Source of the DNA: a virus
Lineage: Duplodnaviria > Caudoviricetes
Virus record (IMG/VR): IMGVR_UViG_3300002091_000057
Coordinates: 1-36,926 of that record
Reading direction: 5' to 3' (one strand)
Length of the DNA: 36,926 bases
A model generated the notes under the pieces. It made no database searches and was not told where the DNA came from. It worked only from the letters and a program-made list of their open reading frames with translations. The first letter of the stretch is position 1. Each line of letters starts with the position of its first letter. Positions 1,775 to 31,951 of this stretch are shown here, piece after piece. The translations under genes and the position numbers were made by a program.

Positions 1775-1780
1775 TAAATA
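1775..1780 (+). promoter_or_regulatory. TAAATA late-type box upstream of putative sRNA
   Basis: CTAAATA lies 5 nt before a closed stem structure that ends in a terminator. Confidence 0.6.
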
Positions 1781-1785
1781 ACTTG

Positions 1786-1922
1786 GTCCAGGTGTTTCGA
1801 GCACGAGGTTGCCGTCAAGAGTAGCCAATTGTTCTTGTCAATACTGTTTTGGTATTGTCCTTTTTTCTATCTATCTAACTCACCTGGACATCCTCCGGCC
1901 ACCCAAAAGGTGGCTTTTTTTT
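1786..1922 (+). ncRNA. Putative ~135-nt small RNA (RNA1)
   Basis: 9-bp closing stem GTCCAGGTG/CACCTGGAC (1786-94/1881-89), inner hairpins 1807-1826 and 1839-1857 with G-U pairs, own promoter box and terminator, no credible ORF. Confidence 0.6.
1898..1922 (+). terminator. Rho-independent terminator
   Basis: GCCACC-caaaa-GGTGGC followed by 8 T. Confidence 0.85.
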
Positions 1923-1953
1923 AGGTAAATTGTGGCTTTTGTGCTACACTACA

Positions 1954-1959
1954 TAAATA
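1954..1959 (+). promoter_or_regulatory. TAAATA late-type box (CATAAATA) upstream of large structured region
   Basis: Follows the terminator and third operator palindrome; precedes ~480 nt of hairpins. Confidence 0.6.
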
Positions 1960-1964
1960 GTAGC

Positions 1965-2436
1965 AGATAGAGAGAATCCCCAGGTTGGTATGCCAAGATA
2001 ACTTATACCGACAAACCCGTTCTGATGTGTGACGGTAGTCAATTCGCTGTTGCTCTCACAGTGGCCTATACGCACTACCCTTGACCGGATGCTTAAAGAA
2101 TAATCCTATTAGTCTGAACCCTACGAATGGATGACCCTTTGCGTGTATGTAATAGTTCAAAAGTGAGTGGGAGTCACGACCGCAAGGTTACCCCACAAGA
2201 GCACTGGATCGGATGTCCTTGTATCCCCAGTCTCTGCGTGTTCGCAACCAAACAGGTGATCGCAAAACCTACCTGGCCTCAATGGCGTTGTTATAAGGAT
2301 CTGTCCGACGATACCCGTCGAAGAATCACGGCTCGGATAGCGTGATTCTATCCTCAAATTACCCATCTGTCTCAACTGCAAAGAGAAAGGCAACATTGAG
2401 TGGCGTAAGACGCTCAATAGATCTCGCAAGAGATCT
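1965..2436 (+). ncRNA. Putative large structured RNA or origin-associated transcript (RNA2)
   Basis: About 12 stems visible by eye, several with G-U pairs that work only on the + strand and GNRA loops (GCAA, GTAA). The overlapping ORFs lack RBS and look spurious. Confidence 0.55.
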
Positions 2437-2458: not shown

Positions 2459-2746
2459 ATGACACTCATCTCAAGCATCTACTCCAACCCATATTACCTC
2501 AGAGAGAATCATCGCGAATATTCAGAAGATGATTATCGATCTCAAATTCTAGGACTTGTAAAAATGAAACCCAACTATCAGGAATACGCAACCACCCGAA
2601 TGCCATTTGGTCGATACCGAGGTTATTTCATCAAGGATGTGCCAGAGGATTATCTCAAATGGGCAGTCATGAACATAAAAGATCAGGCACGAGCCACTAT
2701 GTTTGCTATCGAATTACAAAGAAGAAATCCCCGATTACGCCGATAA
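2459..2746 (+). CDS. 95-aa protein with DUF3820 / exodeoxyribonuclease X C-terminal-like domain
   Basis: MPFGRYRGYFIKDVPEDYLKWA matches the MPFGK(Y/H)KG..I.DVP..YL.W motif. Start moved to ATG 2459 because the upstream part is the hairpin region. Confidence 0.75.
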   Translation: MTLISSIYSNPYYLRENHREYSEDDYRSQILGLVKMKPNYQEYATTRMPFGRYRGYFIKDVPEDYLKWAVMNIKDQARATMFAIELQRRNPRLRR

Positions 2747-4708: not shown

Positions 4709-5140
4709 CTACTCCAAGGTCACTCGCAACATCCAAAGACTCTTTTCCAAGTCCAGGGCTTGATCCTGTGCATAGTTGGCTATTTCGTCCAGCCCTTCGT
4801 CATCAGCCACTTGTATCAGATCCTTGAAATCTTCCAAGAGATTTTCTAAATCTTGTTCAACCAAGTGTAACAGTTGATCGGCTGAGCCTTCAATGGCACC
4901 AGTAGGTATAAAACTCATTTCGACCAAGTCGGCTAGATCACACGGCATGTATTCATCCATACTGCGTAACAATTCACCTATACGGTCAATTTGATCTTGT
5001 CTGCGTGTGTAAATGCCTTCGAGCAATTTGTGATCCGATCTAAAATTTCTGCCGGTCACATTCACATGTGCCACATGCGATCTAAAATATGTGACAAAAT
5101 TGTCTCTAAACAGTTGCGTTAGTTTTTCTGCTGTGTTCAT
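4709..5140 (-). CDS. dps: Dps/ferritin-like protein
   Basis: HVAHVNVTGRNFRSDHKLLEGIY...IDRIGE...EKSLWML matches the Dps H-W-N-V-x-G-x-x-F-x-x-x-H, D-x-x-A-E and K-x-x-W-M-L motifs. Confidence 0.88.
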   Translation of the reverse strand: MNTAEKLTQLFRDNFVTYFRSHVAHVNVTGRNFRSDHKLLEGIYTRRQDQIDRIGELLRSMDEYMPCDLADLVEMSFIPTGAIEGSADQLLHLVEQDLENLLEDFKDLIQVADDEGLDEIANYAQDQALDLEKSLWMLRVTLE

Positions 5141-28758: not shown

Positions 28759-30365
28759 TTGCCGGGGTCATATGTCCGTTTCCATTCCGAACTGGGCTCA
28801 GGTCGCTCACGCACCAGGTTGCGGTAACTGCGCAGGCGTTCTTGTGGAGTACGGTTATCCCAAGTTTCTGCTAGATCATTCAAGCAACCCAGCAGGGCAT
28901 ATCTAGCACTGTCAATGGTGTCATCAGGATCGCTGAAACGGCCCTGTGGATCCACATAATAATTGGCGGCTTCTCTTAGGAAATCTGCACAGTTGTCGTT
29001 GATCATAAATGTGCCGGCTTCCAGCATTTGACGCATGGCATTTATACCATAGGCCTTGTGATTGGTCGTCCGGCCTTCTGCGTCAGGTGGATTGGCAATG
29101 GGTCGGGCAATCACATTGAGTTCGTAGCTTTCAAACAGTTCTCTAATGCTTTGGCTACTCATGGTATAACGACCCGGTGTGCCTGCATCGGGTGGTAGCA
29201 CAATGGGTGTGCCAAACACTTCGGGTCGCATGAGATGCTGTATGTAATTGGCTGGATTGGCTTCTTCTAGTCCGCTCACGCAGATCTGTCTGTGCAACCA
29301 GGCCAGTCTTTCGTGTGGATGCCAGTACATGAGACTGATCACAGTACGGTCATTGACCAAGCCCAGGTCCAAGGCGATAACTCGCTCAATGCCCGGCATG
29401 GTTCTAAAGTCGTAGTCACCTGTTCTATAGGTAGGCCAAGTACGGATCTGGAACACAGCACCTTGACCCATCACAGGCCGGCCAGCTATACGGGCTTCAC
29501 GCTCGTGTGGCAAGTAATCGCGTTCCAGTTGATCTCTAGTGCTTTGTAGTAGGAATGGTTCTGACCAAGGATCCAGTTCAGGCACATCAGTCCAGGCCAC
29601 ACGCACAAAATCGTAGCCAGTTTCTCTGTTCCAGAACTTGCTGACTAGACCGTTGAGACCTTTAAGCGGTGTAAAACTGCAAAGCACCTGTCCTTGAGTT
29701 GTGGCAGTTCTGGTAACAATTTCACTAAAGAAATCATCGGGCGGTTGTTCATCAAACACGGCCAGGTTCAGTTTGAAACCCTGCATCTGACGCACTTCCT
29801 GTGTGTAGTTGGCAAACAACAAGTAGCTTTTGCCACCTGAGCTGTGTACAATCTCTACACCCATACAGTTGGCACCATCCGATCGCATGGTGTCAAACAC
29901 AATGGTGTTTCTGGGAATGGCTCCTGTGCCCATTTGTTCGCGTATTTTTACATCTTGGCTGCCCAACAGTTCATTTTGTAGCACCATGGCTACCTGGCTC
30001 CAACCCTCGCCAGCAACCATAGCTGTAATAGGATGGTCAAAACGGTGACCAGACCACCAATCAGGATATAGGCCTGTAAGGTGCATAGCTGTTTCATAAC
30101 ATGTTGACACAGTCTTGCCAATACGATTTGCAGCCAATATACCACGACGCGGAGCAGCCGCTGTGGCGAAGAATTGTTTTTGATGTTCAAATGGTCTAAA
30201 GTATCGTAGTTGATTATACTGCATGTCATCGGCCACACTAATAGCCAACTGCTCAAATGGTTCACGCACTTCAGTGCTCATATGGGAGAGACTGTCGGGT
30301 GTGAGATCATGTTGTTCCATGACCCATCTCACAGCCCTGCGCATGAGCACGGCACTGTCGATCAT
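28755..30365 (-). CDS. terL: Terminase large subunit
   Basis: PFEHQ Q-motif, Walker A AANRIGKT, Walker B LAVFDE, coupling motif FTP, RNase H-like ALDLG...DDTIDSARY. Confidence 0.95.
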   Translation of the reverse strand: MIDSAVLMRRAVRWVMEQHDLTPDSLSHMSTEVREPFEQLAISVADDMQYNQLRYFRPFEHQKQFFATAAAPRRGILAANRIGKTVSTCYETAMHLTGLYPDWWSGHRFDHPITAMVAGEGWSQVAMVLQNELLGSQDVKIREQMGTGAIPRNTIVFDTMRSDGANCMGVEIVHSSGGKSYLLFANYTQEVRQMQGFKLNLAVFDEQPPDDFFSEIVTRTATTQGQVLCSFTPLKGLNGLVSKFWNRETGYDFVRVAWTDVPELDPWSEPFLLQSTRDQLERDYLPHEREARIAGRPVMGQGAVFQIRTWPTYRTGDYDFRTMPGIERVIALDLGLVNDRTVISLMYWHPHERLAWLHRQICVSGLEEANPANYIQHLMRPEVFGTPIVLPPDAGTPGRYTMSSQSIRELFESYELNVIARPIANPPDAEGRTTNHKAYGINAMRQMLEAGTFMINDNCADFLREAANYYVDPQGRFSDPDDTIDSARYALLGCLNDLAETWDNRTPQERLRSYRNLVRERPEPSSEWKRTYDPGN

Positions 30366-31951
30366 GCAAACAGTCCTGTGGCCTGTAACGGATGTGTGTG
30401 TTCGTACCAGGCTGCTATTCTTCTTTCACTGATGGCAACATAAGCAGGATCCAGTTCTATACCGGTGTAGTCATAATCCAGTTCCACTGCGGCACAGCCG
30501 GTTGATCCTGAACCATTGAACGGATCCAGCACACGACCACCTGAGGGTGTTACAAGTTTTATAAGATACTTCATCAACTCAATAGGCTTGACTGTGGGGT
30601 GGTTGTTGCCCCGGTTGGCATCAGTGCGAGCATCCAGCCCAACTGCCATCCTATTACCGTCTGGTCCATAAGCACCCTGGACCGCACCAAACATAGCGGC
30701 AGGTAGTTCGTGTCCTATGTGCCGTTCGGCTCGGCCAACTTTGGGACAGTAGAAATACTTTTGGTAGTCTGCGATCTCACCTACGACATTGCTGGGGAAG
30801 CGGCCTATTTGACTAGGCTCCCAGTTTAACTGTTCACCTTCACGCAGACCTTGATCAGCATTTTTTTCCGCGTTATAGTTTTCGTGTGCAGTGGTTCCCA
30901 TCTTACCTGACTTGGGCTTAGTGGACTTCTTTTGATCCTGATATTTCTCCACCGGTTGCTCGCTAAAGCCTACACGACTCCATCCATCTGAGCCACCTTG
31001 CGGTCGATCTTTCTTTTTACCAGCCCAACCACCCGCATACAAAGCATTACCTTGTGTGTCACGCAAGTTGTTGGCAGGATCAAAGTCAGCAGGATCTTCA
31101 TTATCTGCGTAAGGCACACGACAAGCATCAATGTGCAAGGCGCCCACGCCCCACTGTTGACAGTTTTTAGCTATTGATAACCGGATAGGCTTGCGGGCTA
31201 ACACAATGGGTTCGTGTGCGGGCTTTAACTGTGTGCCCCAACCAGACCATTGCTGACCTGCAGGAGTTTGGCTTTGTGTGATATCCACAACGCTGGCACC
31301 CGAAGCACCAATGGTATAACGCTGTTCGTCGCTGAAGCAACCTGATAACTTTTCACCTACTTTGATCTGTGGTGTGGTGATAAAGTAATCATCATAGTCA
31401 TCACCACAACCCAGCACTGATTTGAGCGTGATCCACTTGTCATCCTTGGGCAAGTTGTTGGCCCAACCTTTGTCTCGGAAGTCAGTTTTTAGATAACCGC
31501 CTGCGTTGAATCCACACTCACGAGAGATCTCTGCTGTGCTTTTGCCTGAATCAGCGTAAAGTTGTTTTAGTATGGCTTTGACTTCTGACAATTCTGCTTT
31601 GTGTGATGCTTTGCCTGATTGACGATCAATGCTCTTGCCAATGTCTTGACTCTTGGGAAAGCCACTTGAGTAGATCCACATTATCTGATCACGGATCTCA
31701 AAGCCGGCCTGTTCGATTGTGACAGCCAAGTGATGGTAAGTTCGTGCGGCACTGAAGGCTAAAATATGTCCACCAGGTTTAAGCACTCGTAAACACTCTT
31801 GGTAAGTCTCTAGGGCACCTGTGTTGGCGTCCCAGGCTTTACCTAAAAAGTCTATGCCGTAGGGTGGATCGGTTACTATGCTATCAAAGTAATTGTCGGG
31901 GAATGTTTTGAGGACATCCGCATTATTGCCCTGTATGATTCGACTGTTCAT
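30362..31951 (-). CDS. DNA N6-adenine/N4-cytosine methyltransferase (beta class)
   Basis: VTDPPY motif IV at the N-terminus; HPTVKP...VLDPFNGSGSTG motif I at the C-terminus. Confidence 0.95.
   Translation of the reverse strand: MNSRIIQGNNADVLKTFPDNYFDSIVTDPPYGIDFLGKAWDANTGALETYQECLRVLKPGGHILAFSAARTYHHLAVTIEQAGFEIRDQIMWIYSSGFPKSQDIGKSIDRQSGKASHKAELSEVKAILKQLYADSGKSTAEISRECGFNAGGYLKTDFRDKGWANNLPKDDKWITLKSVLGCGDDYDDYFITTPQIKVGEKLSGCFSDEQRYTIGASGASVVDITQSQTPAGQQWSGWGTQLKPAHEPIVLARKPIRLSIAKNCQQWGVGALHIDACRVPYADNEDPADFDPANNLRDTQGNALYAGGWAGKKKDRPQGGSDGWSRVGFSEQPVEKYQDQKKSTKPKSGKMGTTAHENYNAEKNADQGLREGEQLNWEPSQIGRFPSNVVGEIADYQKYFYCPKVGRAERHIGHELPAAMFGAVQGAYGPDGNRMAVGLDARTDANRGNNHPTVKPIELMKYLIKLVTPSGGRVLDPFNGSGSTGCAAVELDYDYTGIELDPAYVAISERRIAAWYEHTHPLQATGLFA

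What the first reader, a model, noticed from the sequence alone, without database searches (positions are those of the whole stretch)
1954..2436. ~480-nt densely structured non-coding element behind a late-type promoter
Stems visible by eye: GTTGGTAT/ATACCGAC (1984-91/2005-12), CCGTT/GACGG (2017-21/2031-35), CGCTGT/ACAGTG (2045-50/2058-63), long-range TATACGCA/TGCGTGTA (2067-74/2140-47), GTGGG/CCCAC enclosing GACC-gcaa-GGTT (2167-96), ACTGG/CCAGT (2203-31), CAGGT/ACCTG (2253-75), CGACG/CGTCG (2306-20), AGAATCACG/CGTGATTCT (2322-49), ATTGAGTG-gtaa loop-CGCTCAAT (2395-2418) and AGATCTC-gcaa-GAGATCT (2419-36). Possible crossing pairs are GGTAG/CTACC (2034/2075), CTATTA/TAATAG (2106/2150) and TGAAC/GTTCA (2115/2155). 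G-U pairs and GNRA loops favour a + strand RNA. It is the largest non-coding block in a genome with no replication genes, so it may be a primer/R-loop RNA origin read by helper machinery (by analogy to ColE1 RNA II and T4 R-loop origins) or a new large ncRNA class. I cannot assign it to a known family.
Basis: partly seen in the sequence, partly recalled or inferred. Interest (0 to 1): 0.85.

Follow-up and report, generated by a model that had tools for sequence, protein, structure and literature searches.

The report
Folded RNA replacing phage primase genes
A small phage with no recognisable DNA-copying genes carries a conserved, knotted element of about 400 bases, likely made as RNA, at the spot where related phages carry primase-type or polymerase-like genes instead, so it likely starts genome copying by pairing back onto its own DNA, probably only when a larger helper phage is present.

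Summary
The element is real. All 14 named stems are present. Bulk folding is only modest (z -1.97), but across 44 homologues 25 of 42 pairs change on both sides, including one pseudoknot; G-U excess favours the + strand, and overlapping ORFs are not conserved. It belongs to a wide family: large T4-like phages, small podoviruses, and integrase islands of Polynucleobacter and relatives. Its 5' third is related to the orphan Polynucleobacter-1 motif (RF01718); T4-like copies pass that threshold, this copy does not. In relatives the same slot holds Prim-Pol/primase plus helicase or a family-A-polymerase-like protein. None of 80 such polymerase loci carries the RNA, and none of 127 RNA loci carries the polymerase. 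A short word flanking the last hairpin changes identically in both copies and has no partner in the RNA, which suggests pairing with its own DNA template. Best reading (0.6): an RNA-primed origin of ColE1-like logic, switched on by a helper's late sigma. Transcription, R-loop and replication are untested. The scan already reported this family and this reading on other DNA; I found no paper giving it a function.

The parts
1775..1780 (+). First TAAATA late-type promoter motif (upstream cassette)
   Evidence: same arrangement in relatives read by eye
1781..1923 (+). Separate small structured RNA candidate with long closing stem and intrinsic terminator; part of the upstream cassette, also seen in front of the polymerase-like gene in three relatives
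   Evidence: MFE z -4.06, 0 of 200 shuffles; terminator 1897-1915
1953..1959 (+). ATAAATA late-type promoter motif of the element (activity untested)
   Evidence: TAAATA 40-160 nt upstream of the core in 42 of 45 island and 14 of 28 other phage copies vs 3-4% background
1981..2157 (+). 5' domain, related to RF01718: P1 1986-91/2005-10, P2 2017-20/2032-35, P3 2045-50/2058-63, long-range P4 2068-74/2140-46, P5 2079-82/2085-88, pseudoknot 2091-93/2154-56
   Evidence: RF01718 15.9 bits here, 45-83 bits in T4-like copies
2160..2280 (+). Middle domain: P7 2167-71/2192-96, P8 2199-2207/2226-34, P10 2253-56/2272-75, conserved GCAAAACC loop; possible second crossing pair 2235-37/2262-64 (conserved, little covariation)
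2312..2319 (+). Twin word, first copy (TACCCGTC)
2322..2349 (+). Last hairpin, between the twin words
2360..2367 (+). Twin word, second copy (TACCCATC); predicted site of RNA-DNA anchoring
2395..2436 (.). Two-hairpin tail, folds on either DNA strand; separable module, predicted single-strand initiation or stop signal
2564..2746 (+). Small downstream gene (PF12843); follows the RNA in several relatives and follows the polymerase-like gene in L362
36315..36797 (+). Second copy of the element caused by the 2565-nt overlap of the record ends

Best explanation
This conserved, pseudoknotted element occupies the phage's replication-module slot and likely works as an RNA-primed origin: it is likely transcribed from the TAAATA promoter by a helper phage's late sigma factor, and its 3' part likely re-pairs with its own template DNA to hold open an R-loop from which borrowed replication proteins would start copying. 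Shown: covarying structure on the + strand; non-coding status; the same family in large T4-like phages, small podoviruses and chromosomal integrase islands; same-slot exchange with primase/helicase or family-A-polymerase-like genes; a twin word that co-varies by identity with no complement in the RNA; TAAATA motifs before genes and no late sigma found in this genome. Inferred: transcription; that the swapped proteins prime replication; that the twin word pairs RNA to template (one RNA copy annealing at the other copy's site, like the rG/dC anchor of ColE1 RNA II); that the tail hairpins act on the displaced strand; helper dependence. My odds: structured RNA 0.9, replication role 0.7, this specific R-loop mechanism 0.5-0.6.
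For: Structure. Non-coding: the ATG of ORF 2127-2345 is kept in 1 of 11 homologues and non-triplet indels occur in 10 of 11; ORF 2157-2429 has stops in 11 of 11. Slot swap: G022 has PriCT-2 primase + VapE helicase and G032 Prim-Pol + VapE; the G027 protein models at pLDDT 95.6 and matches family-A polymerases (Foldseek E 1e-4; Z 12.0, rmsd 3.7, 215 aligned). Small A-family polymerase domains of mobile elements are described as primases (PMC10061031, abstract). RNA in 0 of 80 polymerase loci (best 15.5 bits, E 0.26); polymerase, primase or VapE in 0 of 127 RNA loci, 4 of 4 controls hit; 56 of 80 polymerase loci share a neighbour family with RNA loci. Same flanking genes and the same upstream TAAATA-small RNA-terminator-TAAATA cassette in L408, L382, L438. 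Twin word: 8 of 8 identity in 27 of 50 own pairs vs 6% of cross pairs, 0 of 20,000 permutations; in the window's subtype 63 of 70 vs 50 expected, p 1e-4, complement absent in 13 of 14. Promoter: 8 of 17 TAAATA sites lie within 60 nt of a start, 3.4% of positions; late sigma absent from 5 of 5 small genomes, found in 3 of 4 large ones. Precedent: ColE1 and T4 R-loop origins (PMC4412123 section 3).
Against: No direct evidence of transcription, R-loop or replication. GC skew has no turning point at the element; AT and purine skew turn at 1945-1950 but that is also where the coding strand switches. Among 19 near-complete clade genomes picked through capsid or a neighbour gene, 5 have the RNA, 5 a primase or polymerase-like gene, none both, but 9 have neither recognised; by hand arithmetic no overlap of 5 and 5 in 19 has probability about 0.17. 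The RNA model misses diverged copies (G036, G037 found only by nhmmer), so 'absent' is sensitivity-limited. The third common slot ORF (G002 family) has no assignable fold. The polymerase-like protein was not shown to prime. Permutation tests ignore relatedness; the window's subtype has only about five word types. Large T4-like carriers presumably have their own primase, so they need no substitute. T4-like copies have no TAAATA in front (0 of 23).
Confidence: 0.6

Rival explanations
1. A replication origin that works at the DNA level: transcription only opens the region, and the folded displaced single strand (plus tail hairpins) recruits helper primase or helicase; the twin words are binding or slippage sites, not RNA-DNA anchors.
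For: Same slot-swap evidence; tail hairpins fold on both DNA strands and follow an unrelated block in G012; ColE1 can also initiate by strand displacement without priming (PMC4412123 section 3).
Against: Conserved G-U pairs (176 vs 33 A-C) and a pseudoknot fit RNA better; 34 different first-copy words in 50 elements is much variation for one shared helper protein to read.
Confidence: 0.15
2. A trans-acting large structural or decoy RNA (GOLLD/ROOL/OLE-like cage, or a sponge for helper or host proteins) with no role as an origin; the slot is simply a hot spot for accessory cargo.
For: Size and ornate folding; presence in large phages that have their own replication genes; 9 of 19 clade genomes have neither RNA nor recognised primase; the slot is variable in general.
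Against: Reciprocal exclusion with the polymerase-like gene in 80 and 127 loci with shared flanks; twin word has no partner within the RNA; no Rfam match to those families.
Confidence: 0.15
3. Guide or scaffold RNA of a neighbouring nuclease (omega-RNA/HEARO-like), with GIY-YIG in large phages and HNH-type genes in small ones.
For: A GIY-YIG gene lies next to the RNA in 48 loci; HNH-type genes lie near small-phage copies; loose order of short motifs recalls HEARO (my recollection only).
Against: No fixed partner: island copies show no shared nuclease family; the c15 gene is kept in 27 of 80 polymerase loci that lack the RNA; no HEARO match at E up to 10; no variable guide-like segment with a target was seen.
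Confidence: 0.05
4. A cis-regulatory leader (riboswitch or attenuator) for the downstream gene.
For: Weinberg 2010 lists Polynucleobacter-1 as a possible cis-regulator; PF12843 gene follows in 9 loci.
Against: Downstream genes are unrelated across loci, and convergent in L143-type and several island loci.
Confidence: 0.05

Closest known systems
Polynucleobacter-1 RNA motif (Rfam RF01718; Weinberg et al. 2010, PMC2864571)
   Same: Same order of 5' hairpins and the CACUAYCC...GGA core; 13 of 20 tested viral loci that share the window's core pass its gathering score.
   Different: Rfam models 141 nt with no assigned function; this element is about 390 nt plus tail, adds a covarying pseudoknot, a middle domain and twin words; the window scores 15.9 bits against a cut-off of 37 and 0 of 14 island loci pass.
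ColE1 RNA II primer origin
   Same: Promoter-driven folded RNA of a few hundred nt; a short RNA word predicted to anneal to the template downstream; no element-encoded initiator (PMC4412123 section 3).
   Different: No sequence relation tested or seen; the anchor is a freely varying 5-8 nt twin word, not an rG/dC tract; late-type promoter; no overlapping antisense RNA I found.
T4 oriF/oriG R-loop origins
   Same: Phage promoter plus downstream region forming a persistent hybrid that the T4-type replisome can use (PMC4412123 section 3).
   Different: T4 origins use middle promoters and an unwinding element, with no conserved ornate RNA described in what I read; here the RNA is conserved across phages and islands.
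A-family-polymerase primases of mobile elements (CCPol, TV-Pol; PMC10061031 abstract, PMC2579912 listing)
   Same: The protein that replaces the RNA has a family-A polymerase fold without an exonuclease domain.
   Different: Membership in CCPol or TV-Pol was not tested; no SSB or helicase partner was sought; it is the alternative occupant of the slot, not part of this element.
Large ornate bacterial RNAs (GOLLD, ROOL, OLE, ARRPOF, HEARO)
   Same: Size class, pseudoknots, phage or mobile-element context; ARRPOF's link to plasmid replication is recalled, not read.
   Different: No Rfam match to any of them at E up to 10.

Membership tests
Polynucleobacter-1 RNA (RF01718) | Covariance-model score at or above 37 bits | tested here: not met
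   Window 15.9 bits, E 0.81, model 1-141; homologues sharing its core reach 45-83 bits in 13 of 20 loci
Polynucleobacter-1 RNA (RF01718) | Same order of 5' stems and CACUAYCC-hairpin-GGA core enclosed by a long-range stem | tested here: met
ColE1-type RNA-primed origin | Upstream promoter producing a pre-primer transcript | tested here: inconclusive
   TAAATA motif positionally enriched; transcript not observed
ColE1-type RNA-primed origin | RNA word able to anneal to the template strand downstream | tested here: inconclusive
   Identity-covarying twin word without a partner in the RNA; pairing with DNA is inferred
ColE1-type RNA-primed origin | Persistent RNA-DNA hybrid, RNase H processing, priming by a DNA polymerase | not testable with these tools
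   needs bench work
ColE1-type RNA-primed origin | Overlapping antisense control RNA (RNA I) | tested here: inconclusive
   No - strand terminator and only weak - strand promoter matches over the element; upstream complementarity is not general
ColE1-type RNA-primed origin | No element-encoded initiator protein | tested here: met
   No replication family among 43 scanned ORFs; no polymerase-like or VapE match in G000; small unannotated ORFs remain
omega-RNA / HEARO | Rfam HEARO match | tested here: not met
   no match at E up to 10
omega-RNA / HEARO | Fixed adjacent IscB-type nuclease | tested here: not met
   neighbours vary: GIY-YIG, HNH-type, or none shared
GOLLD / ROOL / OLE / ARRPOF | Rfam match to the family model | tested here: not met
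GOLLD / ROOL / OLE / ARRPOF | RNA-only oligomer | not testable with these tools
   needs cryo-EM or SEC-MALS

The most novel reading that the evidence does not exclude
A portable, protein-free replication initiator: one folded RNA family that does the job of primase or Rep proteins, anchors itself to its own DNA through a programmable twin word, is shared by giant T4-like phages, and has been captured by helper-dependent podoviruses and chromosomal islands that fire it only under the helper's late sigma factor. It would give a function to the orphan Polynucleobacter-1 motif and define a class of capsid-encoding satellite phages.
Probability: 0.45. Interest if true: 0.92.

Novelty: new variant of a known kind. 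Interest (0 to 1): 0.78.

Why it matters
If right, a widespread aquatic phage lineage starts DNA replication with a folded RNA that is interchangeable with protein primases, extending RNA-primed origins from ColE1, T4 and mitochondria to a conserved, ornate RNA family. It would explain how ~35-kb phages with no replication genes copy themselves, assign a function to a motif catalogued in 2010, and offer a simple test (matched versus mismatched twin words) and possibly a programmable R-loop anchor.

Tried and rejected
Rfam at gathering threshold on the window: no hit. No tRNA or tmRNA. blastn of the element, and of a T4-like copy, against isolate phage records: only 27-30 nt chance matches. Sequencing runs: no RNA holder listed, so no reads were laid. 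A 5'-end pairing with the AACC loop (1982-84/2268-70): compatible in 89% of cells but no two-sided change; left open. Antisense control by the upstream small RNA: the window has 8 Watson-Crick pairs of 11 (3 of 20 shuffles reach it), L138 has 12 of 15 (0 of 20), but it is not general in the 94 loci tested; not adopted. GC skew: no turning point at the element. G002-family slot protein: no Pfam, PHROG, atlas or fold assignment. Sequence search of the polymerase-like family against PDB: nothing. One of the 57 genome hits (L258) is a chance match in coding DNA, and the L153 group shares only the 19-mer in another arrangement; both were left out of the models and of the counts, as were three duplicate loci. 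Alignment A2 kept two poorly fitting rows (L284, L308). The automatic structure in model R1 caught only 16 pairs, so R1 served as a detector only. Literature searches listed no paper giving this family a function; Weinberg 2010 supplements S1.DOC and S3.PDF could not be read and may discuss the motif's gene context.

Full report
Setting. The window is one virus record whose ends overlap by 2565 nt (99.4% identical), so the unit is about 34.4 kb and the element appears twice. Of 43 ORFs scanned, hits were SU10-type portal and capsid protein, terminase, tail fibres, a methyltransferase and a ferritin-like protein; no polymerase, primase, helicase or sigma factor was found. The capsid protein has 560 relatives in IMG/VR.

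Observation. Bulk folding is weak evidence: z -1.97 on +, -0.95 on -. Rfam gave no gathering-level hit and a weak Polynucleobacter-1 match, 15.9 bits against 37.

Homologues. blastn found matches in 8 of 50 related records, 3 of 13 near-complete ones. A 19-base core then matched 119 listed viral stretches (about 210 estimated) and 57 stretches in bacterial genomes, mostly Polynucleobacter, Limnohabitans and Rhodobacteraceae. Three settings emerge: large T4-like phages, where the element follows late sigma, gp47, gp46 and a GIY-YIG gene (48 loci with gp46 and GIY-YIG); small phages like this one; and chromosomal islands with a tyrosine integrase (39 loci). T4-like copies pass the RF01718 threshold (13 of 20 loci tested); island copies do not (0 of 14). 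RF01718 therefore describes the first third of one branch of a larger family. Weinberg 2010 lists the motif without a function (passages and supplement search seen).

Structure. On 44 window-like sequences, 94% of cells pair, 25 of 42 pairs change on both sides, no shuffle of 500 reaches this, and slid controls drop to 30-48%. Stem 2068-74/2140-46 covaries at all 7 pairs; a pseudoknot 2091-93/2154-56 switches C-G to U-A in 11 sequences. Stem 2017-35 is invariant only because it was the query. G-U cells outnumber A-C cells 176 to 33. Overlapping ORFs are broken in homologues. The shuffles ignore relatedness, so they are not probabilities.

What stands in the same place elsewhere. In relatives without the RNA, the stretch between the same flanking genes holds PriCT-2 primase plus VapE helicase (G022), Prim-Pol plus VapE (G032), or a 368-aa protein (G027). 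That protein models well (pLDDT 95.6) and matches family-A polymerases; such stand-alone domains act as primases on other mobile elements (PMC10061031, abstract only). Of 80 viral loci encoding it, none carries the RNA, though 56 share a neighbour family with RNA loci; of 127 RNA loci of 4 kb or more, none encodes it or the primases, with 4 of 4 controls hit. In L408, L382 and L438 it sits behind the same TAAATA, small RNA, terminator, TAAATA cassette as the window's element; in L362 it is followed by the PF12843 gene; in L430 and L437 it lies between gp46 and the baseplate hub. Across whole records, the polymerase-like gene is in 3 of 50 and VapE in 3 of 50, none RNA-positive. Against this: in 19 near-complete clade genomes not chosen for the RNA, 5 have the RNA, 5 a protein, 9 neither; this subset alone is not significant (about 0.17 by hand). 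Four of the nine carry an ORF family with no assignable fold. Diverged copies in G036 and G037 escape the covariance model, so absences are limited by sensitivity.

Twin word. Earlier scan notes pointed to paired repeats near the 3' end; I had seen them but tested them only afterwards. In 50 elements the words on either side of the last hairpin match 8 of 8 in 27 own pairs against 6% of cross pairs (0 of 20,000 permutations; 34 distinct words). The longest repeat had a complement upstream in only 3 of 50. In the window's subtype the signal was weak with 8 sequences but clear with 14 after new homologues were added: 63 of 70 against 50, p 1e-4, no complement in 13 of 14. The window has TACCC at 2312 and 2360. 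Change by identity without an RNA partner is what pairing of the transcript with its own template would give; in ColE1 an rG stretch anneals to a dC stretch of the template to make the persistent hybrid (PMC4412123, section 3 read). This step is inference.

Promoter and helper. TAAATA is not over-represented overall (17 vs 13 expected), but 8 of 17 sites lie within 60 nt of a start codon (3.4% of positions). It precedes 42 of 45 island copies and 14 of 28 other phage copies, 0 of 23 T4-like copies, against 3-4% background. NATAAATA is the late promoter of T4-like cyanophages (PMC2984593, passages). No late sigma was found in 5 of 5 small genomes; the search rang in 3 of 4 large records. Helper dependence is inferred.

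Not shown. No RNA run was listed. GC skew does not turn here; AT and purine skew do, but so does the coding strand.

Mechanism. Helper late sigma transcribes the element; the 5' and middle domains fold co-transcriptionally; the last hairpin brings the twin words together so that one RNA copy anneals to the template at the other copy's site; the R-loop gives a primer end and a displaced strand whose tail hairpins would load helper primase or helicase. Rivals: a DNA-level origin (0.15), a trans-acting scaffold or decoy (0.15), nuclease guide (0.05), cis leader (0.05).

Novelty. It works like ColE1 RNA II or T4 R-loop origins but is not a member of either; it is a longer relative of RF01718 that fails the family threshold. 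Eight literature searches listed no paper giving it a function. The scan has reported this family with the same reading on other DNA; those notes are not independent support. I had reached the RF01718 link and the primase swap before reading them.

Noticed in passing
window 1775-1923 (+): Separate ~140-nt structured RNA candidate with its own TAAATA and terminator (z -4.06). The architecture recurs without sequence conservation in about ten relatives and in front of the polymerase-like gene. Its 1807-1817 stretch is complementary to the P2 3' arm of the large RNA family; L138 has a stronger case; not general.
   Followed up: partly
L112:9810-10410 (G034): A different non-coding block in the same slot, with a GGGGGAGGGGG tract resembling mitochondrial CSB II (resemblance recalled) followed by an array of short hairpins.
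   Followed up: no
L120:4550-4960 (G012): Another unrelated ~370-nt non-coding block in the slot, ending in the same two-hairpin tail as the window.
   Followed up: partly
L115:7290-7650 (G037) and L124:250-600 (G036): Diverged members of the RNA family that lack the 19-base core; G036 has a perfect twin word. The family is wider than my searches show.
   Followed up: partly
L095:14764-15555 (G002), also G010, G018, G074: Common slot ORF of unknown fold whose disordered N-terminal part is encoded by repeat- and hairpin-rich DNA, as expected for an origin inside an initiator gene.
   Followed up: partly
L253-L309 bacterial islands: Small integrase islands with DUF6641 (37 loci), DUF6876 and a clamp-loader-like ATPase (8 loci), TAAATA motifs and this RNA: candidate satellites of large T4-like phages.
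   Followed up: partly
L153, L154, L161, L184 group: Small phages that share only the 19-base core in a different arrangement, with a C-rich tract downstream.
   Followed up: no
window 1728-1700 (-): Near-consensus sigma-70 promoter (11 of 12) facing the leftward small ORFs, so some genes may be expressed without a helper.
   Followed up: no
window 30362-31951 (-): 529-aa DNA methyltransferase, long for its family; profile matches are split between the two ends, suggesting an insertion.
   Followed up: no
window 4709-5140 (-): Ferritin/Dps-like gene conserved across the clade.
   Followed up: no
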